Shown here: in pieces, positions 4,186-18,586 of the stretch
How positions within the stretch are numbered: position 1 is the stretch's first letter
Layout of the letters: each line of letters starts with the position of its first letter
Virus record (IMG/VR): IMGVR_UViG_2744054987_000003
Location: 1 to 64,000 of that record
Reading direction: 5' to 3' (one strand)
Origin: a virus
Taxonomy: Duplodnaviria > Caudoviricetes
Length of the DNA stretch: 64,000 bases
Program-made: the position numbers and the translations under genes
Notes under the pieces: generated by a model
The model's input: only the letters and a program-made list of their open reading frames with translations
Database searches by the model: none
Told to the model about the DNA's origin: nothing

Positions 4186-4694
4186 CGGGCATCCCGTGTC
4201 GACTCGATGTCGTTGGGCGGCAGCGCGCCGTGGGTCGGACAGTGAAAGCAGCTGTCGTGATAGAACACAGTCGCATGACACCAGACACAGCGCAGTGATG
4301 GCTCCCAGTTGCGGGCGGGCGTCTCCCGACGCTGCTGCTGCGGGGTCCAGGGCAGGGGCAGCCCGTCATCGGGGCGGCGCGGCACCACATGCACGTGGGT
4401 GTGCTTCACGGTCTGCGTGGCGTGCTCGCCGACGCTGGTGATGATGTTGGCCTGCATGGCGGGATGGTCGGCCACGTACTGCGCTGCAATCTGCATGAGA
4501 TCCCGTGCGATGCCGGGGTGCTCGGCCGCGTTGTCGCTGTGCTCGGAGCTGATCACCAACACGTGGCCGTCGGTGACCGGGTTCAGCGGGTTGAGGATGG
4601 CGACCCGACACTGACCTTCGACGCGCAGGATCGTGGTGTCCTGGATGATGTCCAGGTTGTCCCAGTTGTCGGGGCAGAACACGCAGTCGGTCAT
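4182..4694 (-). CDS. HIT-family nucleotide hydrolase with C-terminal Cys cluster
   Basis: CVFC, PLNP-x-x-GHVLVI, QTVKHTHVHVVPR histidine triad. Confidence 0.9.
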   Translation of the reverse strand: MTDCVFCPDNWDNLDIIQDTTILRVEGQCRVAILNPLNPVTDGHVLVISSEHSDNAAEHPGIARDLMQIAAQYVADHPAMQANIITSVGEHATQTVKHTHVHVVPRRPDDGLPLPWTPQQQRRETPARNWEPSLRCVWCHATVFYHDSCFHCPTHGALPPNDIESTRDAR

Positions 4695-10011: not shown

Positions 10012-10607
10012 CCGATGACGTGACGGACCGCGTACGGGCTGAGCGCGACAAGTCGTCTCGCGGACTGCCATGGGGGCTGGCCGACGAGCTGCTGGCCGAG
10101 GTCGAGCGCTTGCACACCTGGGACGGCCTCATGTCCTTGCTCGATGAACACTGGCCGCAGTCGATCTTCCCCACATTGTCAGACGACCCCGGCCGCGATC
10201 CCGGCCCACGCATCGTGTCGTTGCTGCGCTGGGTTGAACATCTCCGCGCGCTCCAGCGTGACGACCGCCAGAACGCCATCAACGCCATCGAAGAACGCGA
10301 CCAGGCCGTGCGTGAGGTCGAGCGGCTACAGAGCGATCTGAGCTTCTACCGAGAGTGGTCCAACGAGCTTACTCAGTACATACCAGAGGAGTTTGACGAC
10401 GACATTGCCCAGGAGGCCATCATCAGCAACTGGGCCAAGTTTGTCTCCGCCGAGGTCGAGCGCTTGAGGGGTGCGCTCGAAGCGCTCGCACATGACCTGA
10501 ACGCCCACAGCCAGACCACCCCGGACGATGACGACCACGAGATCATCTGTGATGTCGAGTCGGCCATCGCCTATCGCATCGAGGCCGTGCTGCGGGGTGA
10601 CCAGTGA
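10008..10607 (+). CDS. Ead/Ea22-like mosaic protein
   Basis: Three EVERL modules; LHTWDGLMSLLDEHWP...DPGPRI. Confidence 0.6.
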   Translation: MTDDVTDRVRAERDKSSRGLPWGLADELLAEVERLHTWDGLMSLLDEHWPQSIFPTLSDDPGRDPGPRIVSLLRWVEHLRALQRDDRQNAINAIEERDQAVREVERLQSDLSFYREWSNELTQYIPEEFDDDIAQEAIISNWAKFVSAEVERLRGALEALAHDLNAHSQTTPDDDDHEIICDVESAIAYRIEAVLRGDQ

Positions 10608-10877
10608 GCGACTACTACGCCGACATCGGCGGCTGGGACACTGTTACGGATGTGTTTCTGCCGCTGAAGGTTCACCGAGTCGAATAGTCACTCCAGTAGT
10701 CGCTCGGCGATGTCTAGGTCGGCGAGCTGCTCGGCAATGCGTATGCGCTCCTTGTCGAGCCGACGTAGTTGTTTAGCCAGCTCAGAATCCCGTTCAGTCA
10801 GCCCCCTGCGCCGCCGTAAGATGATCTGACGCAGCTCTAGATCGGTGTACTCGGCGCGATGCATGATCGCGTCATCA

Positions 10878-10987
10878 TGGTGCCCTCATCCGAGACTCGA
10901 ACTCAGATTAGCCGTCATGTCCTACCGCAACTGAGCGCTATCGCTGCGGGGTGTCACGACGGCATCACTTCACCGCGAAGTGAGGGC
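10878..10987 (-). ncRNA. tRNA-like RNA with an extended, non-decoding anticodon arm
   Basis: Acceptor GCCCTCA/TGAGGGC plus ACCA; T-arm CTGAG-TTCGAGT-CTCGG; D-arm TCGC-GGTGAA-GTGA; anticodon arm replaced by a long hairpin (GCCGTCGTG/CATGACGGC then CCGCAGC/GTTGCGG). Confidence 0.7.
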
Positions 10988-11257
10988 TTGTGGGCAGTTT
11001 TCCGGTGGATGCCCAGCCACTCAATCCATCCCCGCCGTTCCTGGCTTCCTTGTGAGAGGCACCCAACGTACGGCTCTGGAGGCTTGCTCAAGGTAACCAG
11101 GGACATCGCACATCCGTTGTGGCACGGCTCGCGCCCAATCCTCGACTCTAGCGCGCTATCCCTGGTCTTTACCGCGAGGTCGACCTTGTGTGGCATACGT
11201 TGACCCGCCGGTATGCCAGCGACGGATGAGCAGGGCGTCCACCGAACCCTGTCGCCG
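10988..11257 (-). ncRNA. Putative structured RNA (about 270 nt) between tmRNA and the tRNA mimic
   Basis: Dense nested helices and no convincing ORF/RBS. Confidence 0.45.
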
Positions 11258-11680
11258 TGGACCTGGGGGGACTCGAACCCCCGTCCGCGCTTCTGTCTAA
11301 CTGCGTTCTACGGGCGTAGTTCGTGTTTGGTGGTACCAGCTAGCCTGCCCCACGAACAGGACGATGACTAGGACCGTGCGCGATTGTGCTCTAAGGCAAT
11401 GCCGACCGGCCAGGCTCGCGCAGCCCACTCCGATACCCGCCTGCTGCTAAGGATGATGCCGGAAACTCTGTGCAGCAGAGTGACTTGTCTCCGGCAGGTC
11501 ACTGACTCAGACCAGGACACCCTCGTTGGCGTAAGCCTCGATGGCGTCGAAGTCGGCGTCAGTGAACCGTGCGTCGTTGATGTCGGCGCTTAATCAATTT
11601 CCACGTTCACTTGAGGTAGCTCGTGGAACACCTGCCCGCTGTTCAGTTGTCTATCCACACGTCGAAACCTTTACAGGCCC
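11258..11680 (-). ncRNA. ssrA: Phage tmRNA; tag ORF 11587-11507 encodes ADINDARFTDADFDAIEAYANEGVLV
   Basis: 5' GGGCCTGTAAAGGTTTCGAC; 3' GGGGGTTCGAGTCCCCCCAGGTCCA; G3-U70 Ala determinant; TAAGC upstream of the GCC resume codon; CCA not encoded. Confidence 0.93.
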
Positions 11681-11709
11681 TTGCTGCACTCATCACGAGT
11701 ACGACTACC

Positions 11710-11738
11710 ACTATACAGATGAGACAGACTTTGGACAA
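11710..11738 (-). promoter_or_regulatory. Promoter TTGTCC-N17-TATAGT (extended -10) for the tmRNA cluster
   Basis: About 30 nt upstream of the mature tmRNA 5' end. Confidence 0.6.
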
Positions 11739-11741
11739 GTC

Positions 11742-12119
11742 CTAGATCATCGGCAGATATGCGTGGTGGTTGAACTGCGGTTGGTAGGCCCCACCGCCGC
11801 CGAACTTGATGCCGCCGCGTTCTCCCGAAGAAACAGCAGTGCCGTCCGGCAGCGTAGCGGCGGTGTGGTAGCTGTTCCAACCGACCACCAGAGCATTGGG
11901 CGCGGTGCCGGGAATGAAGCCGCGAGCGGCCAACTCAGCGCCCTCGTTGTGGGTGCTGAAACGCCCCGAGTAGGGCGCTCGGCCAGAGGCGATGTTAGCG
12001 ACGAATGACACCAGACCCGAGCAGTCGCTGCCTGCTGGACCATTGCCGCCAGAGATGTAGGGCGTGCCCTGCATCTGGCCGACGAACGCGATGATGGCCA
12101 CTAACGCTTCTGCCGTCAT
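11742..12119 (-). CDS. NlpC/P60-family peptidoglycan endopeptidase
   Basis: GTPY-x-x-GG, DCSGLV, HTAATLPDG. Confidence 0.82.
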   Translation of the reverse strand: MTAEALVAIIAFVGQMQGTPYISGGNGPAGSDCSGLVSFVANIASGRAPYSGRFSTHNEGAELAARGFIPGTAPNALVVGWNSYHTAATLPDGTAVSSGERGGIKFGGGGAYQPQFNHHAYLPMI

Positions 12120-12220
12120 ACTGTTTGAGGCAAGGCAAACGTATTTGTTTTAGACGACCTCTATAACAGAGCAGGTCGAGGCTTTAAGCCTGTCGCGAAA
12201 TCCATGTGACGGCAAACCTT

Positions 12221-12490
12221 TTACTTAGGCCCTCTACGTTTGAAAATCTCGATACGTTCGCTGGAGGTCGTACCGCCCCAGACGCCGTGCACTTCTTCGT
12301 TGTCCAGCGCATACTGCAGACACTGCATCTTGACCGGGCAGCGCTGGCAGACACGTTGTGCGTAGCGAGAGTTCGCGCCGAGTTCGGGATACCAGATGTC
12401 GGTGTCGAACCCACGACAATTGGCATGGATACGCCAGCTCTCGGGATCGTCATCTTCGTCGGGCGGTAACGAGTACGGGCTGGCGCTCAC
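12221..12490 (-). CDS. whiB: WhiB-family transcription factor
   Basis: W-x-x-x-ANC, CQRCPV-x-x-x-C, GVWGG-x-x-x-x-ER. Confidence 0.92.
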   Translation of the reverse strand: MSASPYSLPPDEDDDPESWRIHANCRGFDTDIWYPELGANSRYAQRVCQRCPVKMQCLQYALDNEEVHGVWGGTTSSERIEIFKRRGPK

Positions 12491-13017
12491 GCATCCTGCC
12501 GCTCAGACCAGTTCTTGTTACCTTGTCCGACTTCGACTTTGATGCCAAGCGAAGTGAACATCTCGATGCACTTCGGGTCGTCTTCCAGGCAGCCGCGCAC
12601 GTCGTAGCTGTTGATGAGATAGGTGTAGATTTCACGCTTGAGCACGTCGCTGGGCCGGTGATCATCGTCGTCACGCATGAACGGGCCGTCGTAGGGCAAC
12701 TTCAGGTGCTCGCCGAGCCAGGCGCGGGTCAGGTCACGCCATTGACGCATCCGACCGGTGACGACAACAAGTTTGTGGCCGGTGTCAAATGCGCGCTGTG
12801 CGTAGTCGACGCCGTGGAGGTAGGGCGGGCACCGTCGGCTGGCGTCGTGGAAGGCGTCGAAGTCTTTGCCGCTGTCGCTGAACAGCTTTGGCAATGCGCT
12901 GGTGATGTCGCACAGCGAGCCGTCGACGTCGAGGATGACGGCTTTGGGTCGCTCGTAATGGCAAGCGTGGGAAGCGATGCGCCGCTGCGAAAGCGTGTAA
13001 AGCGACAGGTCACGCAT
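12487..13017 (-). CDS. HAD phosphatase (polynucleotide kinase phosphatase domain-like)
   Basis: ILDVDGSL, VTGR, MR-x-x-x-DHRP...K, EDDP. Confidence 0.82.
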   Translation of the reverse strand: MRDLSLYTLSQRRIASHACHYERPKAVILDVDGSLCDITSALPKLFSDSGKDFDAFHDASRRCPPYLHGVDYAQRAFDTGHKLVVVTGRMRQWRDLTRAWLGEHLKLPYDGPFMRDDDDHRPSDVLKREIYTYLINSYDVRGCLEDDPKCIEMFTSLGIKVEVGQGNKNWSERQDA

Positions 13018-13393
13018 CGATGTTTCTCCCCGGTCGGTTGTCGTATTCGGGCAGATTGTCGGCGAACCAGGCCAGCGTGAAGGCGTGCCAGGCGACGGCG
13101 ATGATGTGCGGGGTGCCGGTCTCTGCGTCGATATCCTCGCCTGACCAGAACTGCCACAGATGACGATTGAGCGCGGCAAACGAAAGCGACCACTTGTAGC
13201 CTCGCTGCCAGTTGTTTTCGCCGTCATGGATGATATTGCCCATCTCATCACGCTCGGTGTACTTCTCAGCGCCAACACCAAAGTGGCGGGCCAGCAAACG
13301 CAACGGTTCAGCGGGTATTAGATCGTACCGCTCATTTTTTTGACCCTTGCGTCCGCCGGTTGGAGAGACTAAGCGAGTTTCTTCGGTGGACAT
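13010..13393 (-). CDS. dATP/dGTP diphosphohydrolase (DUF5664)
   Basis: TGGRKG-x-K-x-x-RYDLIP, GAEKY, NW-x-RG, RH, ETG-x-x-H-x-x-AVAWHA. Confidence 0.85.
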   Translation of the reverse strand: MSTEETRLVSPTGGRKGQKNERYDLIPAEPLRLLARHFGVGAEKYTERDEMGNIIHDGENNWQRGYKWSLSFAALNRHLWQFWSGEDIDAETGTPHIIAVAWHAFTLAWFADNLPEYDNRPGRNIDA

Positions 13394-13989
13394 ACGTCTC
13401 CATACCTCTCAATCACTTCGTATGCCCAAGCGAGCATGTCCTCGACACGGGCACCAGAAGGGTGTCCCACCGACCACAGTTCGAGATTCTGTGGTCTGTT
13501 GTCGTTACGCACCTTGTTCTTGTGGTGCACCCGCTCGTCGGGGTGTAAGTAGCGACCCAATTGTGTTTCCATGACAGCAATGTGCTCAAGTACGTAGCGT
13601 CCGTTCACCGCCCGAGGGTGGTCCGGTGCCCAGACCCTGACATAGCCGTCCTTAAGCTGGACGCGACCACCCCTCCATGACGGATGGTTCTCGCCACGCT
13701 GCGCCTTACATCGACATGCTGCGCACGTACGAGCGGATTTGTTTTTTGTCCTCCCGCACAAGCAAGTGTCCTGATCCGACGCCCGGTAGGTGGCAATCCT
13801 GCACGAATGGCAGTACTGATACCTGGCAGGCACGGATGTACCGCAGCACTTGCAAAAACGGTCTTTGGTTCCCTTGGTACGCTCTGTCCGCAAACAGCTG
13901 ACGCACTTACCGTTCTGTTGAAGCCTAGTCACCGAATGGCCACACGCCTGAACTTCACCTCTAGGAGGGCGGGGCCACGGCTTGCTCAC
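13369..13989 (-). CDS. HNH homing endonuclease with Cys-rich N-terminus
   Basis: HPSWRGG, GYV, LEH-x-x-VME-x-x-LGR, VHHKN-x-x-RNDNRPQNLELW. Confidence 0.88.
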   Translation of the reverse strand: MSKPWPRPPRGEVQACGHSVTRLQQNGKCVSCLRTERTKGTKDRFCKCCGTSVPARYQYCHSCRIATYRASDQDTCLCGRTKNKSARTCAACRCKAQRGENHPSWRGGRVQLKDGYVRVWAPDHPRAVNGRYVLEHIAVMETQLGRYLHPDERVHHKNKVRNDNRPQNLELWSVGHPSGARVEDMLAWAYEVIERYGDVCPPKKLA

Positions 13990-14498: not shown

Positions 14499-17400
14499 TT
14501 AGGGACGTCCGAGTCTGCCACGGCCTTGTCGTGCGTGAATGTTGTTGGCACGCAACGGCGAATAAGTATTACCGCGTCCCCGCGACAGCTCAGCCATGGC
14601 TTGACGGGCCTTGTTCTCCGAGTAGCCGCCACGCGGCAGCGTGGTCAGTCGCTCCAGGTCACGACCGGAACGCAGTCCGGCGACATTGGTCGAGCCGTAA
14701 GAACCGGCAGCGAGGTTGCCGTCAACGCCATAGCGTTCCAAGGCGTCGTGCAGCAGGTCGGTGACCACCACCGAGAAGGCGTCGAACAGGTCTTTGGTGG
14801 TGACCGGCCCGAAGTCCTGCTTGACTACGCGACCGGCTTTCTCGCTCAGGAACTTCGACTCCATCTCCAGCAGACATCCGGCGTCGTCGTAGAAGGTGTC
14901 ACGATAGCTGGACACCCACTCCAGGTTGACGGCGCTCTTGAGTTTTTCGCAACGGATCTGGTTTTCACGTTCGGTGAAGGTCACCTCGGTGACTCGGATG
15001 CCGGGAGAGAACCTGCGGCGCAGCGAGGCGATCAGGCCGCTGGAGTTCCACTGGTCGAAACTGATCTTGGAGGTCGACGGGAAACGCACCAGGATGTCTT
15101 CAATGTCCTGCTGGACCTGCACATAATCGATCGTGGGTTTGCCGGTCTCCTCGTCGGGAGGGAAGTCGCTCGGCTTCCAGACATGCAACAGGTCGATGAT
15201 GACGTGCGGTCGATACTTACCGTCATCAAGGGGGCGATCTTCGACGTGGCCGATGCACAACGCGAAGTTCGCGCCCGTGTTATGACAGACGATGCCATTG
15301 GCCACAAAGTTGTGCTCACCAGATTCCATCGTCAGGTCATAAGTGGTCTCCTGGCCGTCCGACTCTATAGACTTGACCTCATGCCAGCCGTCATCTCCGC
15401 GCGTCTGCCTGGTCTTGTCAGATAGATGTGGCAGGTCAGCCAGATAATCCAACCGAGCTACTTTTTCATGGAAGTCAGCCAGAAAACCGATCTCGTCACG
15501 GAACCTGACCAGGTTTCGGCCCCGGATACTTAACTTCCAATACTCGGTCTTGGCGCTCCCCTTGACTCCAGTCGCTCGCCAACCGCTGTACTGGCCAGAG
15601 ATGATGCCGAAATTGGCGAGGACTACCTGTGTCTGTCGTATCAACTCGCCGGATGCGGAGCTGACCGTCACCTCACGACTCTTTTGGTGTGGTGCTGACA
15701 CCCATCCATCACCAGAGAAATAGGCCGCCATGAACTCTGCCACGACAGGCTTTGGTGACCGCAGGATGGACCATGGGATGCACGTCTGTCGACAGTGCTC
15801 ATTGGGGATGAAGCCCATTTCGGCCAGCACGGCAATCATGTGCGGATTGCCCCACCCGATTGTCTTGCACTTGCCCTTGAATCTTTCCCACGACGGGTCG
15901 ACACCAAACAATTCACGAATGAGGTCGGCACACTCGTCGGCAAGCTTCTCGTCGCTGTGGCAACTGATCGTCAGTTGATGCCACTGAATCGACCCCTCAG
16001 CGCAGATATAGCCGAACAGCCTACCCATCTTCTCTGTGACGAACGGAGCAGGACTGCACATTCGTGCGTTGACCCGCTTGCCGGGCCGAACCTCGGGGAT
16101 GTCCACGTATTGCGTCGCCCAGATGTCGGTGTCCGAACGCACCCGAACCTTATCGTCCGTGCGGAGATCGCTCAGGGGCACCCAGCCGCGCTGAGTCCAA
16201 ACCGGATGCTCCGCACTGCCGCGCACCGACCAGCCGCCCTTCAGGGTCAGCTTCAAGATAGGTTTGACGCCGCTGTTTACCCACCGCACTACATTGTCTG
16301 AGCCGTCCCTGGTGGCGACATGATCACCGGCCTCGACCTGCGCAACACTGACAATGCCGTCCGTCGTGTAGAGGTACGAGTCCGCCGTCAGACAGCGGCC
16401 TGGGTCGCAGTGAATCCGATAGCTGTGAGTCAGGATGCCTCGGGCCTGTGCTTCCAGCGGTGCTCGCCAAGAAGGGGTGTCGAAGATGCGATCCACCTTG
16501 TCGGGATCGAGGTATGCGCCTTGGACCTCGGCGAATTGCGCTTCGCGTTCGACACGGAATCGGTCAGGATTGCGCAGTTTGCGACGACGCTGCGACTCGT
16601 GCTCCAGCCCCCACTGAATGGGACGCTTGAAGGGGATGCCGACCAGCTCCGGCCCGCGTTGCCAGTCCTCGTAAAGCGACCAGCTTGGTCCTTGGAAGAT
16701 GAGCATTTCAGGGTCGGCAGCGATCTCGGCGATCTTCTGTTCGGCGTCGATACCGAGTTGCTTTTCGGTGACCCGCTCGACGGCGACCTGCTTGTCGCGA
16801 TAGGCGGCCATCAGCGCGCTGCCCTGCTGGTAGAGCTGGAAGAAGATCCCGACCTTCGACCAGGGTGAGCTGGGGCAGTAGGTCAGACCGTCGGTGCCGA
16901 ACTGGTCAAGTGATGGCTGGGCGGCGTTGTAAATTTCGTCGCCAGACTTCGAGGAGCCGGTCTGGATCAAGAACGCCATCTCGTCGTAGGTGTTGGCGTA
17001 GCCGGTGCCACCGCGAGTTGCCGCCGATGTCGAAGACAGCGCCACAGCGGTCAGTGAAGCGATCTCGTGGTCGATGGGTACGTGGGCGGCTTTCAGCTCG
17101 GCGATGCGCCGAACGTCAGCCGGGGTGCGGATCGACAGGTAATACTCTTTGGAGCTGGCGATGTGCGGCTGAAGGTACTTGCAGTCCTCGACGGTGCGCC
17201 GGATGTCGGCGAACTGATAGCGCATGGCCTGTGTTTGGCTGGTGGCCACCACCGACATGACGCCGTTGAGGCCCGGTGCCACGCCGTAGTGGGACTGCCA
17301 GTCGTCCAGGGAGAAAAAATACGCGATCTGCTCGGTGTTAACGATGCCTCCGATGAGGCCCTTGCTGGCGCGCCGTCCGGCCACCATCTGGATGTGCGGG

Positions 17401-17732
17401 AAGCGGCGGTAGCCGCGCGCCTTCAGGTACTCGACGCGCTCCCAGATGTCGGGTTGCACGCCGAAGACGTCACGACGGCGCTGGAATCCCTTGCGCCACT
17501 CCTCGATGACATCGAAGTCATAAGTGGTCATCCTCTCGGTCTCTAGGAAGATGAGCTTGAGCAGGGTCTGCTGGCGCGGGTAAAGCCGGTAGCCACAGTA
17601 GTCGCTGCCGACAGCGAAGTGAACAATGCCGTCCCACGGCGGCTCTTTGATGACAGCGGCTTTGAGTCGCGCTACCGGATCGAAGTCATCAACGCTGAGC
17701 AGTCGCAGTTGGGCATTCGGATGGAAGGCCAC
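14499..17732 (-). CDS. terL: Terminase large subunit (intein-containing)
   Basis: GTG overlaps the lysin stop; YPRQ adenine-binding motif, Walker A GRRASKG, Walker B YDEMAF, SSP coupling motif, nuclease HCDPG...FDQWNS...KDLFDA. Confidence 0.88.
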   Translation of the reverse strand: MAFHPNAQLRLLSVDDFDPVARLKAAVIKEPPWDGIVHFAVGSDYCGYRLYPRQQTLLKLIFLETERMTTYDFDVIEEWRKGFQRRRDVFGVQPDIWERVEYLKARGYRRFPHIQMVAGRRASKGLIGGIVNTEQIAYFFSLDDWQSHYGVAPGLNGVMSVVATSQTQAMRYQFADIRRTVEDCKYLQPHIASSKEYYLSIRTPADVRRIAELKAAHVPIDHEIASLTAVALSSTSAATRGGTGYANTYDEMAFLIQTGSSKSGDEIYNAAQPSLDQFGTDGLTYCPSSPWSKVGIFFQLYQQGSALMAAYRDKQVAVERVTEKQLGIDAEQKIAEIAADPEMLIFQGPSWSLYEDWQRGPELVGIPFKRPIQWGLEHESQRRRKLRNPDRFRVEREAQFAEVQGAYLDPDKVDRIFDTPSWRAPLEAQARGILTHSYRIHCDPGRCLTADSYLYTTDGIVSVAQVEAGDHVATRDGSDNVVRWVNSGVKPILKLTLKGGWSVRGSAEHPVWTQRGWVPLSDLRTDDKVRVRSDTDIWATQYVDIPEVRPGKRVNARMCSPAPFVTEKMGRLFGYICAEGSIQWHQLTISCHSDEKLADECADLIRELFGVDPSWERFKGKCKTIGWGNPHMIAVLAEMGFIPNEHCRQTCIPWSILRSPKPVVAEFMAAYFSGDGWVSAPHQKSREVTVSSASGELIRQTQVVLANFGIISGQYSGWRATGVKGSAKTEYWKLSIRGRNLVRFRDEIGFLADFHEKVARLDYLADLPHLSDKTRQTRGDDGWHEVKSIESDGQETTYDLTMESGEHNFVANGIVCHNTGANFALCIGHVEDRPLDDGKYRPHVIIDLLHVWKPSDFPPDEETGKPTIDYVQVQQDIEDILVRFPSTSKISFDQWNSSGLIASLRRRFSPGIRVTEVTFTERENQIRCEKLKSAVNLEWVSSYRDTFYDDAGCLLEMESKFLSEKAGRVVKQDFGPVTTKDLFDAFSVVVTDLLHDALERYGVDGNLAAGSYGSTNVAGLRSGRDLERLTTLPRGGYSENKARQAMAELSRGRGNTYSPLRANNIHARQGRGRLGRP
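15279..16394 (-). mobile_element. Intein with LAGLIDADG homing endonuclease (372 aa) in the TerL nuclease domain
   Basis: R|CLTADS start, SAEHP block B, FGYICAEG and MAAYFSGDG blocks, TYDL...HNFVANGIVCHN|T end. Confidence 0.93.
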
Positions 17733-18586
17733 TAGTCGGGTTGTTCGAGCTTGTCGTAGCAGCCTGGCACACCGAGTTTGGCGCAGGCGGCACCGAGTGC
17801 CTCCATCGGCGTGCGTCCGCCCAGGAAGTCCCAGCGAGTCAGGTATTGCAGCCACATGTCTGCGGTCTGGACGTCGGGGTCATCGGGCATGGGAATGGCA
17901 GTCGGACTTGACACAGGGGTGCCTCCTGACGGCGGTGGCGGCGGCGGCGGCGGTGGTGGGGGTGCGCTGTCGATGCCACACGAGGCGGCGAACTGCTGCG
18001 GGGTCACGCCGTCGGCGGAGTTCATGTCGCAGCGACCGAACGGCGGGCAGCCTTCGGGCAGTCCGCCACCGTAGCCCTGGCCGTCGGTGTACTGGTGGGC
18101 GATCTTGCCGGGGAAGTCGGGGTTGGAGCCGTATGCGGCGACGATGAACTGGTTTTCGCGCCGGTTACGCCACATACTGTTGAGGTCGTAGGTGTTGCCG
18201 TAGGCGATGACTCGTCGCGGGTCGCCGGTCCAGGCGCTGAGCGCGTCGTCGGTGGCGTTGAGTGCGTCGGAAAAGTCGCCGGAAGGGTTGCCGCCGCGTT
18301 CGACGTCGATCATCAAGATGGTCTTGGGGTGCAGACCACCGTTGTCGTTGATCATGTCCTGATGGGTGGCCACTGACTGCTGCCAGTTGGGTCGCCAGTA
18401 GAAGTAGATGATGCCGCAGGCGAGGCGTCCATCGTCGAGTGCGCGGCGCATCCAGGCGTAGTTGCGTGCGAAGTTGTGATCACGGTAGGTGCCGTCGCTG
18501 GTGCGGATCGACAGCACCTCGTACGGGTATGAGTCGTCGACCGGAACTTGAAATTCCGAAACGTCGGCAAAAATGGTGTCTGCCAC
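17732..18586 (-). CDS. lysA: Lysin A, GH25-like muramidase with Pro linker and cell-wall-binding tail
   Basis: ADVSEFQ, IYFYW, MIDVE, HQYTDG, CDMN; poly-Pro linker; W-x-x-LGGRT-x-x-EAL tail. Confidence 0.85.
   Translation of the reverse strand: MADTIFADVSEFQVPVDDSYPYEVLSIRTSDGTYRDHNFARNYAWMRRALDDGRLACGIIYFYWRPNWQQSVATHQDMINDNGGLHPKTILMIDVERGGNPSGDFSDALNATDDALSAWTGDPRRVIAYGNTYDLNSMWRNRRENQFIVAAYGSNPDFPGKIAHQYTDGQGYGGGLPEGCPPFGRCDMNSADGVTPQQFAASCGIDSAPPPPPPPPPPPSGGTPVSSPTAIPMPDDPDVQTADMWLQYLTRWDFLGGRTPMEALGAACAKLGVPGCYDKLEQPD

What the first reader, a model, noticed from the sequence alone, without database searches (positions are those of the whole stretch)
10878..10987. CCA-ending tRNA mimic whose anticodon loop is replaced by a long hairpin
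Seen: a 110-nt cloverleaf with a perfect 7-bp acceptor stem, encoded ACCA, TTCGAGT T-loop and GG-containing D-loop. The anticodon arm continues as a 9-bp plus 7-bp extended helix with no U33/7-nt loop, so it should not decode as is. It lies downstream of tmRNA on the same strand. Inference: a decoy for tRNA-targeting toxins, an aminoacyl donor, an SmpB/EF-Tu or RelA ligand, or a mascRNA-like processing signal. I cannot assign it to a known family.
Basis: partly seen in the sequence, partly recalled or inferred. Interest (0 to 1): 0.8.

Follow-up and report, generated by a model that had tools for sequence, protein, structure and literature searches.

The report
Orphan tRNA-shaped gene in a phage
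An actinobacterial phage carries, just after its tmRNA gene, a one-of-a-kind gene for an RNA that keeps the top half of a tRNA but has a long hairpin where the anticodon loop should be, so it most likely cannot decode and serves, if anything, as an RNA-processing handle or tRNA look-alike.

Summary
On the minus strand, 10987..10878 encodes a 110-nt cloverleaf: a 7-bp acceptor stem, encoded ACCA, a 5-bp T stem with a UUCGAGU loop, a small GG-containing D hairpin, and a 9-bp plus 7-bp arm in place of the anticodon stem-loop. All 32 modelled pairs are standard (MFE z = -4.1). A simple descriptor found it in the real genome and 0 times in 40 shuffled genomes. ARAGORN and Rfam do not call it.

It lies 268 nt downstream of a phage tmRNA in a 147.5-kb Phrappuccino-like phage record. 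Its acceptor and T arms are closest to actinophage tRNA-Arg(UCU) genes (ranks 1-3 of 72). In cluster C mycobacteriophages that tRNA sits downstream of tmRNA on the same strand. The bacterial Arg determinants A20, C35 and U36 are absent.

No homologue was found. Five metagenome sources hold part or all of it (one the full 110 nt) with no differences, so there is no covariation and no RNA evidence.

Best reading (0.4): a remodelled tRNA-Arg-derived gene whose conserved top half serves tRNA-end processing in a tmRNA-sRNA operon. Rivals: an inert relic, a trans-acting mimic, or a spliced tRNA.

In passing: the spacer holds a covarying, Rfam-absent sRNA motif shared with Gordonia phages.

The parts
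10878..10987 (-). 110-nt tRNA-shaped RNA gene (the finding)
   Evidence: Sequence. Fold z = -4.1. Model R1 scores 142 bits on itself and finds no second copy in the genome. The descriptor control found 0 hits in 40 shuffled genomes.
10981..10987 (-). acceptor stem, 5' strand (p1-7, GCCCUCA)
   Evidence: It pairs perfectly with p100-106. It is identical to the acceptor stem of Gordonia phage GMA2 tRNA-Arg(tct).
10968..10980 (-). D-like hairpin (p8-20): 4-bp stem and 5-nt loop with GG. Alternatively a UCGC/GUGA stem with a GGUGAA loop.
   Evidence: and the ARAGORN drawing at -ps85. C stands at position 8 and U follows the GG, where tRNA-Arg has A20.
10911..10963 (-). long arm replacing the anticodon stem-loop (p25-77): 9 bp, internal loop, 7 bp, apical loop
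   Evidence: The inverted repeat I3 is reported.
10918..10951 (-). 34-nt segment (p37-70) flanked by a GACA direct repeat. Removing it in silico gives the commonest near-threshold ARAGORN call, tRNA-Val(gac).
   Evidence: 0 of 1485 deletion variants were called at the default threshold. At 95% of it, 12 of 1485 were called, 6 of them Val(gac).
10890..10906 (-). T arm (p82-98): CUGAG / UUCGAGU / CUCGG
   Evidence: The 44-nt 3' half hits only T-arm/acceptor parts of assorted phage tRNAs, all at E >= 3.
10878..10888 (-). acceptor stem 3' strand (p100-106), discriminator A and encoded CCA
11255..11680 (-). phage tmRNA gene with no encoded CCA; tag ADINDARFTDADFDAIEAYANEGVLV*
   Evidence: Rfam RF00023 at 94.7 bits. 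Tag from translation. 72% identical to the Phrappuccino tmRNA region.
11710..11738 (-). only sigma-70-like promoter match in 10400-12200, 30 nt upstream of the tmRNA
   Evidence: 9 of 12 hexamer matches. This is a consensus match only.
11090..11187 (-). motif A: structured sRNA-like element in the spacer, shared with Gordonia and Mycobacterium phages
   Evidence: BLAST, alignment A3 and covariation counts. No Rfam hit.
10991..11027 (-). motif B: 37-nt element ending 4 nt before the tRNA-like gene. In Forzavirus Gordonia phages it sits inside a tRNA array.
10688..10864 (-). 58-aa ORF, 14 nt downstream of the CCA end. It is the homologue of Phrappuccino gp10, which there follows the tmRNA after about 60 nt.
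   Evidence: 60% identity, E = 1e-6.

Best explanation
The element is a remodelled descendant of a phage tRNA gene, most probably the tRNA-Arg(UCU) that accompanies tmRNA in related actinophage tRNA arrays.

It has kept a flawless acceptor stem, T arm, discriminator and CCA. This is the half of a tRNA that RNase P, 3'-end trimming and CCA repair recognise (textbook knowledge). Its anticodon loop has been replaced by a closed 9+7-bp hairpin, and its D region is shrunken.

Inferred mechanism, none of it shown:
- It is transcribed from the tmRNA promoter as part of one RNA: tmRNA, motif A, motif B, tRNA-like element, 58-aa ORF.
- RNase P cuts at its G1. That sets the 3' end of the upstream 268-nt RNA carrying motifs A and B.
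- Trimming to the encoded CCA releases a stable 110-nt tRNA-shaped RNA and separates the downstream ORF message.
- It does not decode and is probably not charged by ArgRS or ValRS.

In short, it acts as processing punctuation, and the released tRNA look-alike may have a further role.
For: - The structure is real and not chance.
- All 32 modelled pairs are standard, and the 3 non-Watson-Crick pairs are all G-U on the tmRNA strand (structure; my count). The reverse strand scores 22 bits against 142.
- Decay is uneven. The acceptor and T arms have 0 mismatches, whereas the D and anticodon regions are heavily rebuilt.
- Among 72 scorable distinct tRNAs from the loci held and the phage's own genome, the 3 tRNA-Arg(tct) genes rank 1-3 in acceptor/T-arm identity: 26, 22 and 22 of 34, against a mean of 15.9 (sd 3.7). 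GMA2 tRNA-Arg(tct) has the identical 7-bp acceptor stem, A73 and T loop.
- In cluster C phages Nappy and Tonenili the gene order on the tmRNA strand is tmRNA, tRNA-Gln, tRNA-Arg(tct).
- Context: the spacer is non-coding and holds a covarying sRNA motif. Motif B ends 4 nt before G1 and lies within a tRNA array in Boopy.
- Only one promoter-like site (upstream of the tmRNA) and no minus-strand terminator-like site were found in 10400-12200.
Against: - There is no homologue of the element. It is absent from Phrappuccino and Settecandela, where the tmRNA is followed directly by the gp10 homologue.
- Nothing was found in 50,697 phage records by blastn, in plasmids, or in 10 phage records searched with R1.
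- The copies or partial copies in five metagenome sources show no differences, so there is no covariation.
- There is no RNA evidence at all.
- One extra base (A99) lies between the T stem and the acceptor stem, C stands at position 8, and the D loop is very short. These could impair tRNA-like folding and RNase P recognition.
- The Arg(UCU) ancestry rests on 34 positions and on two effectively independent comparators, because Nappy and Tonenili are near-identical.
- Promoter and terminator scans are consensus matches only and fit mycobacterial promoters poorly.
Confidence: 0.4

Rival explanations
1. Inert relic. A phage tRNA gene was disabled by insertions in and around its anticodon loop. It is still carried, and perhaps still processed, but has no selected function.
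For: - It is an orphan: no homologue in any search, and the nearest phages lack it.
- It has lost U8, A14, A20 and the anticodon loop.
- ARAGORN rejects it even after any single deletion: 0 of 1485 variants were called at the default threshold.
- Phage tRNA arrays commonly hold odd or undetermined tRNAs, for example the 'tRNA-OTHER' beside the Phabba tmRNA.
Against: - Not one of the 32 pairs is broken, including the 16 pairs of the new arm.
- The acceptor/T half is untouched while the rest is rebuilt, which is not what uniform decay predicts.
- The encoded CCA is kept.
Confidence: 0.3
2. Trans-acting, non-decoding tRNA mimic. A stable tRNA-shaped RNA with a sealed anticodon arm titrates a tRNA-binding factor, such as a host anticodon nuclease or other tRNA-targeting defence, a synthetase, EF-Tu, or SmpB alongside the phage tmRNA.
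For: - The tRNA elbow elements are kept: GG in the D loop and a UUCGAGU T loop.
- It is adjacent to the tmRNA.
- The phage encodes RNA-end healing enzymes: a PNKP-phosphatase-like ORF and a 2H phosphoesterase.
- Phage tRNAs are proposed to counter tRNA-targeting defences (PMC10264068; search listing and start of the abstract only).
Against: - No partner is identified.
- The Arg and Val identity sets are not met.
- It has no G3-U70, so it lacks alanine/tmRNA-like identity.
- There is no conservation data.
- Nucleases that read the anticodon loop would have nothing to bind.
Confidence: 0.17
3. Intron-bearing tRNA. A short segment of the long arm, such as the 34 nt flanked by GACA and compatible with the canonical 37/38 position, is removed by host enzymes to give a decoding tRNA, for instance tRNA-Val(GAC).
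For: - At 95% of ARAGORN's threshold, 12 of 1485 deletion variants are called. Six of them are tRNA-Val(gac), and five of those are the same product because of the GACA repeat.
- The insert pairs with the would-be anticodon loop, as eukaryal and archaeal introns do (the comparison is recalled).
Against: - 0 of 1485 variants pass ARAGORN's default threshold.
- Other readings pass equally at 95%: Pro(agg) x3, Leu(cag) x2 and Gly(ccc) x1.
- There is no bulge-helix-bulge motif (my reading).
- 34 nt is far too short for a group I intron, and Rfam finds none.
- No RtcB, Rnl1-type or Rnl2-type ligase was found in the phage, although the Rnl1 model rang in no control genome, so that blank is uninformative.
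- The acceptor pairs C3-G70 and C4-G69 contradict the bacterial Val identity set.
- The acceptor and T arms resemble tRNA-Arg, not tRNA-Val.
Confidence: 0.08
4. Chance fold, or a DNA-level element such as an att-site remnant or a cruciform, rather than an RNA gene.
For: - The record is labelled a provirus.
- A tRNA-Lys(ttt) with a similar 3' end (GGGCACCA) lies near the right end of the record.
- tRNA genes serve as attB sites in mycobacteriophages (PMC10865867, abstract).
Against: - 0 hits in 40 shuffled genomes.
- Both acceptor strands are present, so it is not a half-tRNA junction.
- Phage genes homologous to Phrappuccino genes lie on both sides.
- All three wobble pairs fit only the tmRNA strand.
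Confidence: 0.03

Closest known systems
Actinophage tRNA-Arg(UCU) genes (Gordonia phage GMA2; Mycobacterium phages Nappy and Tonenili)
   Same: The acceptor stem is identical to GMA2's (7 of 7 pairs, plus A73), and the T loop is identical. The first 5 acceptor pairs and 3 T-stem pairs are shared with Nappy and Tonenili. In cluster C arrays this tRNA lies downstream of the tmRNA on the same strand.
   Different: The element is 110 nt, not 74-76. It has no 7-nt anticodon loop and no UCU. U stands where A20 should be. It has C8, a 5-6-nt D loop and an extra base between the T and acceptor stems. ARAGORN and the Rfam tRNA model do not call it.
tRNA-like processing signals: mascRNA at the MALAT1 3' end, tRNA punctuation, and sRNAs released from bacterial tRNA operons (recalled, not tested)
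   Same: A tRNA-shaped module with a non-functional anticodon region lies next to other non-coding RNAs. RNase P cleavage there would define the neighbour's 3' end.
   Different: Rfam mascRNA-menRNA (RF01684) does not match the element. Its only weak hit, 14.9 bits against a gathering score of 42.5, is on the tmRNA T arm. Here CCA is encoded, the arm is much longer, the host is bacterial, and no processing has been shown.
tRNA-like domain of tmRNA
   Same: An acceptor stem and T arm, a reduced D region, and a long helix where the anticodon arm would be. It sits next to a tmRNA gene.
   Different: It has no G3-U70 (C3-G70 instead), no mRNA-like domain and no pseudoknots, and the long helix is closed. 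ARAGORN's tmRNA mode and the Rfam tmRNA families do not match it.
Intron-containing pre-tRNAs with the intron at 37/38
   Same: An extended anticodon helix forms between loop bases and the inserted segment. One deletion register fits 37/38.
   Different: There is no bulge-helix-bulge motif and no splicing endonuclease or ligase in the phage. 0 of 1485 deletion variants reach ARAGORN's default score.
YrlA-type bacterial Y RNAs and the two small stable RNAs in the phage T4 tRNA cluster (both recalled)
   Same: Non-decoding RNAs with tRNA-like parts; the T4 ones are encoded among phage tRNA genes.
   Different: In YrlA the RNA ends lie on the Ro-binding stem, not on the acceptor stem. No Ro (TROVE) gene is present in this phage, and no Rfam Y RNA hit was found. 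The T4 RNAs could not be compared, because my search listed only general T4 papers, which I did not open.

Membership tests
tRNA (Rfam RF00005 / ARAGORN) | Detected by the family's covariance model or by ARAGORN | tested here: not met
   ARAGORN finds 0 genes in the window and nothing on the isolated element, with or without introns, at the default, 95% or 90% thresholds. Rfam gives no tRNA match on the element even at E <= 10.
tRNA (Rfam RF00005 / ARAGORN) | 7-bp acceptor stem, 5-bp T stem with a TPsiC-type loop, and discriminator plus CCA | tested here: met
   There is one extra base (A99) between the T and acceptor stems.
tRNA (Rfam RF00005 / ARAGORN) | 5-bp anticodon stem with a 7-nt loop carrying U33 and an anticodon | tested here: not met
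   p25-77 folds as 9 bp, an internal loop and 7 bp.
tRNA-Arg (bacterial identity set) | A20, C35, U/G36 and A/G73 (PMC9976931, Table 1) | tested here: not met
   Only A73 is present. U follows the D-loop GG, and there is no anticodon. The numbering of the D loop is my own reading.
tRNA-Val (bacterial identity set) | A73, G3-C70, U4-A69, A35, C36 (PMC9976931, Table 1) | tested here: not met
   The element has C3-G70 and C4-G69. The bases A and C are available only in an internal loop or after hypothetical splicing.
tmRNA / tmRNA-like | G3-U70, an mRNA-like tag region, and a match to the Rfam tmRNA models | tested here: not met
   The element has C3-G70. All tmRNA and permuted-tmRNA hits lie at 11235-11680, none on the element. 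ARAGORN -m finds nothing.
Intron-containing tRNA (protein-spliced type) | Bulge-helix-bulge at the splice sites, and a canonical tRNA after intron removal | tested here: not met
   No BHB can be drawn. 0 of 1485 deletion variants are called at the default threshold.
Group I intron in a tRNA gene | A group I core of more than 200 nt in the anticodon loop | tested here: not met
   The whole arm is 53 nt, and Rfam gives no intron hit.
mascRNA-menRNA (RF01684) | Match to the family model | tested here: not met
   There is no hit on the element. Whether it works like one, through RNase P cleavage that releases a neighbouring RNA, was not testable with these tools.
Y RNA / YrlA with Ro | A Ro (TROVE) protein gene nearby and a Y RNA model match | tested here: not met
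   PF05731 is absent from the 147.5-kb record, while it rang in 2 control genomes. No Rfam hit.

The most novel reading that the evidence does not exclude
The phage deliberately maintains a tRNA whose anticodon loop is sealed into a helix. This would be either a nuclease-proof tRNA look-alike that soaks up a host tRNA-targeting defence factor or a translation factor, or the first short, non-group-I intron in a tRNA gene of a bacterial virus, removed by host end-healing and ligation enzymes.
Probability: 0.15. Interest if true: 0.8.

Novelty: new variant of a known kind. Interest (0 to 1): 0.4.

Why it matters
Phage tRNA genes are annotated almost only with ARAGORN and tRNAscan-SE, so tRNA-derived RNAs that have left decoding go unseen. 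This one keeps exactly the half of a tRNA that the end-processing machinery reads. It sits in a cluster with a tmRNA and two other conserved non-coding motifs.

If it is processed as proposed, it would be a bacterial-virus example of tRNA-like punctuation of a non-coding RNA operon. If it acts in trans, it would add a new kind of player to the conflict over tRNAs between phages and hosts.

As it stands it is a single sequence without expression data, so its value is as a lead, together with the covarying motif A next to it.

Tried and rejected
**Homologue searches that found nothing**
- blastn of the element against phages gave only a 24-nt Moraxella match at E = 5. blastn against plasmids gave none.
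- Exact 29-mer scan of viral contigs: none.
- Protein-anchored locus searches with the 58-aa ORF and the PNKP-like ORF in viral contigs and genome contigs: none.
- A tmRNA-derived pattern found only the Phrappuccino record in viral contigs. In metagenome contigs it found one identical contig (L007) and one relative cut off before the region (L008). The gapped form found nothing in genome contigs.
- Motif B 19-mer in viral contigs: none.
- Both genome-contig scans were then spent, so I obtained no host genome handle and could not run R1 over bacterial genomes.

**R1 hits judged spurious or trivial**
- Phrappuccino 111891-111996: 13 bits, inside the gp173 CDS, with many non-pairs.
- ScarletRaider: 14 bits, many non-pairs.
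- The remaining hits were ordinary tRNAs.
- The four further records gave none.

**Sequencing runs**
- No RNA holder was listed.
- Contigs of three DNA runs cover parts of the element with 0 differences, which gives no information on selection or expression.

**Ideas tested and dropped**
- The spacer as a decayed duplicate of the element: the best local alignment is not significant, with 96 and 137 of 500 shuffles scoring as high under the two scoring schemes.
- The insert as a templated copy of window 4284-4314 (31 nt, 81% identity): 44 of 400 shuffles score as high. No second copy of the 34-mer exists at <= 6 substitutions.
- ARAGORN's forced tRNA-Leu(cag) with a 23-nt intron, at 85% of its threshold, ignores the 9-bp helix.
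- An HDV-like (theta-type) ribozyme directly after the tmRNA: by eye, a 6-bp P1 with a G-U, plus P3 and P4, can be drawn. But L3 would be 11 nt and P2 only 3-4 bp, and no Rfam HDV family matched. I do not claim it. For PMC10879173 I read passages only.
- The MAFFT alignment of the window against Phrappuccino (A4) misaligned and was not used.

**Other blanks**
- Absent from the phage: TROVE, RtcB, CCA-adding enzyme and PF09414.
- PF09511 rang in no control genome, so that blank says nothing.
- The protein Atlas gave no lead for the 58-aa ORF: best score 0.83, unnamed clusters.

**Literature**
- Searches listed no paper that, by title or abstract start, describes a phage tRNA-like gene with an extended anticodon helix. 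These were keyword searches of an open-access library, not proof of absence.
- Supplementary files were not consulted.

Full report
**What is there**

The window is the first 64 kb of a 147.5-kb virus record that IMG/VR labels a provirus, with 61% G+C. On the minus strand, 10987..10878 reads as a 110-nt cloverleaf. Element position p corresponds to window coordinate 10988-p. Its parts are:
- Acceptor stem GCCCUCA/UGAGGGC (p1-7 with p100-106).
- Discriminator A and an encoded CCA.
- T arm CUGAG-UUCGAGU-CUCGG (p82-98).
- A small hairpin with GG in its loop (p8-20).
- Between these, a 53-nt arm (p25-77) of 9 bp, a 5x5 internal loop, 7 bp and an apical loop.

The MFE is -51.6 kcal/mol against -37.0 +/- 3.6 for shuffles (z = -4.1, 0 of 200 as good). 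On the structure I gave to the covariance model, I count 29 Watson-Crick pairs, 3 G-U pairs and 0 mismatches. The three wobble pairs would be A-C mismatches on the other strand, and the reverse strand scores 22 bits against 142.

I scanned with a plain descriptor: a T loop with a 5-bp stem, an adjacent 7-bp acceptor stem, and NCCA. It found the element in the real genome and nothing in 40 dinucleotide-shuffled genomes. The two ORFs that overlap the element do not look coding.

**What the standard tools say**

ARAGORN finds no tRNA or tmRNA in the window. On the isolated element it finds nothing at 100%, 95% or 90% of its threshold, with or without introns. At 85% it forces a tRNA-Leu(cag) with a 23-nt intron, which ignores the 9-bp helix.

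At gathering scores Rfam 15 finds only the tmRNA, at 11680..11255 on the same strand (94.7 bits). In permissive mode (E <= 10) over 10600-11300 it finds nothing on the element.

**Where it sits**

The nearest known phages are Mycobacterium phages Phrappuccino and Settecandela, 72% identical over the tmRNA only. In both, the tmRNA is followed after about 60 nt by gp10. gp10 is the homologue of the window's 58-aa ORF 10864..10688 (60% identity). The 268-nt spacer plus the 110-nt element is therefore an indel relative to those phages.

The only promoter-like match in 10400-12200 is 30 nt upstream of the tmRNA, and no terminator-like site lies on the minus strand there (consensus scans only).

The spacer is not junk. 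It holds two conserved motifs.

Motif A (11187..11090):
- It is 83-89% identical to unannotated intergenic stretches of Gordonia phages (GMA2, GMA3, GMA7, HayZem, ScarletRaider, Zany, UBSmoodge, Evaa) and of M. abscessus prophage prophi79-1. Mycobacterium phage Hangman gave a shorter 26-nt match at 96%.
- I aligned nine of these sequences and named a structure of four helices, one of them a loop-loop pseudoknot.
- 91.1% of cells are paired, against 28-42% when partners are slid. 11 of 25 pairs change on both sides, and 0 of 500 shuffles reach the observed values.
- Rfam has no match.

Motif B (11027..10991):
- It is 92% identical to a 37-nt stretch of Forzavirus Gordonia phages. In phage Boopy that stretch lies in a tRNA array, between tRNA-His and tRNA-Ser.
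- It ends 4 nt before G1 of the element.

The locus therefore reads as a non-coding RNA cluster: tmRNA, motif A, motif B, tRNA-like element, then the small ORF.

**Ancestry**

I scored the acceptor strands, T arm and discriminator (34 positions) of the element against tRNAs that ARAGORN finds in the loci held and in the phage's own genome. There were 97 calls, 75 distinct and 72 scorable; three distinct tRNAs without a recognisable T loop or a full 3' strand were dropped.

The three tRNA-Arg(tct) genes rank first to third: 26, 22 and 22 identities, against a mean of 15.9 and sd of 3.7. The GMA2 gene has the identical acceptor stem, discriminator and T loop, and also shares an 8-mer at the junction of the anticodon stem and the variable loop. 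Nappy and Tonenili are near-identical, so this amounts to two independent comparators.

In those two cluster C phages the order on the tmRNA strand is tmRNA, tRNA-Gln(ttg), tRNA-Arg(tct). I take the element to be a remodelled tRNA-Arg(UCU)-type gene (my estimate 0.6).

It has lost the bacterial arginine determinants A20, C35 and U/G36 and keeps only A73. For PMC9976931 I read Table 1 and the arginine section as passages. The D-loop numbering is my own reading.

**The intron idea**

As a positive control, four real tRNAs of the genome were all called.
- At the default threshold, 0 of 1485 were called.
- At 95% of the threshold, 12 of 1485 were called: Val(gac) six times, Pro(agg) three times, Leu(cag) twice and Gly(ccc) once.
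- Five of the six Val(gac) calls are the same product, because the removed 34 nt (p37-70) is flanked by a GACA repeat.

That register is compatible with the canonical 37/38 position. Against it:
- No bulge-helix-bulge can be drawn.
- The acceptor pairs contradict the Val identity set.
- The arms look like tRNA-Arg, not tRNA-Val.
- The phage has no RtcB or PF09414 ligase. The PF09511 search rang in no control genome and is uninformative.

The phage does encode a PNKP-phosphatase-like ORF and a 2H phosphoesterase. Both are end-healing enzymes, but neither is next to the element in a way that links them to it.

**Homologues and expression**

None were found. See Tried and rejected for the full list of searches. 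Contigs of three DNA metagenome runs (soil, wastewater and landfill by their labels) cover parts of the element with no differences. One JGI metagenome contig holds the full 110 nt, and it scores the same 142.2 bits as the window copy with no differences in the printed alignment. No run on record as RNA holds the stretch. There is thus no covariation and no evidence on transcription.

**Interpretation**

Shown:
- A real, non-chance tRNA-shaped gene on the tmRNA strand.
- Not a canonical tRNA, not a tmRNA, and not in Rfam.
- Closest to actinophage tRNA-Arg(UCU).
- Embedded in a cluster of conserved non-coding motifs.

Inferred:
- It is co-transcribed with the tmRNA.
- It is cut by RNase P at G1 and trimmed to its CCA.

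The pattern of change is uneven. The half that the end-processing enzymes read has no flaw, while the D and anticodon regions are rebuilt, and the rebuilt arm is itself perfectly paired. I read this as selection on the top half, and so prefer a processing-punctuation role (0.4) over an inert relic (0.3). A trans-acting mimic (0.17) and a spliced tRNA (0.08) remain open.

With one sequence and no RNA data these numbers are soft.

**Verdict**

The element is best filed as a new variant of a known kind: a phage tRNA-derived, non-decoding tRNA-like gene. It is an orphan so far, which limits both confidence and interest (0.4). The covarying motif A beside it is an independent lead.

Noticed in passing
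window 11090-11187 (-): Motif A is a structured RNA of about 100 nt. It is shared with unannotated intergenic gaps of at least 8 Gordonia phages, Mycobacterium phage Hangman and M. abscessus prophage prophi79-1. In 9 sequences, 11 of 25 pairs change on both sides, 91% of cells are paired, and 0 of 500 shuffles score as high. It includes a loop-loop pseudoknot. Rfam 15 has no match. In GMA3 and prophi79-1 it is followed by a strong hairpin and a U run, like a stand-alone sRNA gene.
   Followed up: partly
window 10991-11027 (-); L013 701-737: Motif B is a 37-nt stretch, 92% identical to Forzavirus Gordonia phages (Boopy, Forza, BlueNGold, Mareelih). There it lies in a tRNA array gap between tRNA-His and tRNA-Ser. 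One stem differs by a compensatory change, judged by eye. Only two distinct sequences are known.
   Followed up: partly
window 11255-11680 (-): The phage tmRNA is missed by ARAGORN but found by Rfam at 94.7 bits. It has no encoded CCA. Its tag is ADINDARFTDADFDAIEAYANEGVLV*. In Phrappuccino and Settecandela the homologous region is annotated as a hypothetical protein (gene 9).
   Followed up: partly
window 14499-17855 (-): A 1118-aa ORF matches terminase large subunit PHROGs and carries an intein with a LAGLIDADG endonuclease domain. An HNH endonuclease ORF lies at 13369-13989.
   Followed up: no
window 12487-13281 (-); genome 137591-138247 (-): There is a PNKP-phosphatase-like ORF, whose N-terminal ~100 aa may be a wrong start, and a 2H '2-5 RNA ligase' superfamily ORF. 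Both are RNA-end healing enzymes. No RNA ligase was found in the phage.
   Followed up: partly
genome 89785-90099 and 144965-146237: The record has eight canonical tRNAs: Gln(ttg), Gln(ctg), Tyr and Pro in one cluster, and Lys(ttt), Glu, Asp and Phe near its right end. I did not resolve whether the second cluster is host flank or phage. Pfam found nothing host-like there.
   Followed up: partly
L013 993-1077 (+) (Gordonia phage Boopy): An unannotated stretch in the tRNA array scores 40.8 bits with the Rfam tRNA-Sec model, below its gathering score of 47. The annotated tRNA-Ser beside it scores much the same (40.6 bits). It is probably an unannotated long-arm tRNA.
   Followed up: no
window 10855-10875 (-): By my reading, the AUG of the 58-aa ORF sits in the loop of a 6-bp hairpin. 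The Phrappuccino homologue also has its AUG in a small hairpin loop.
   Followed up: no
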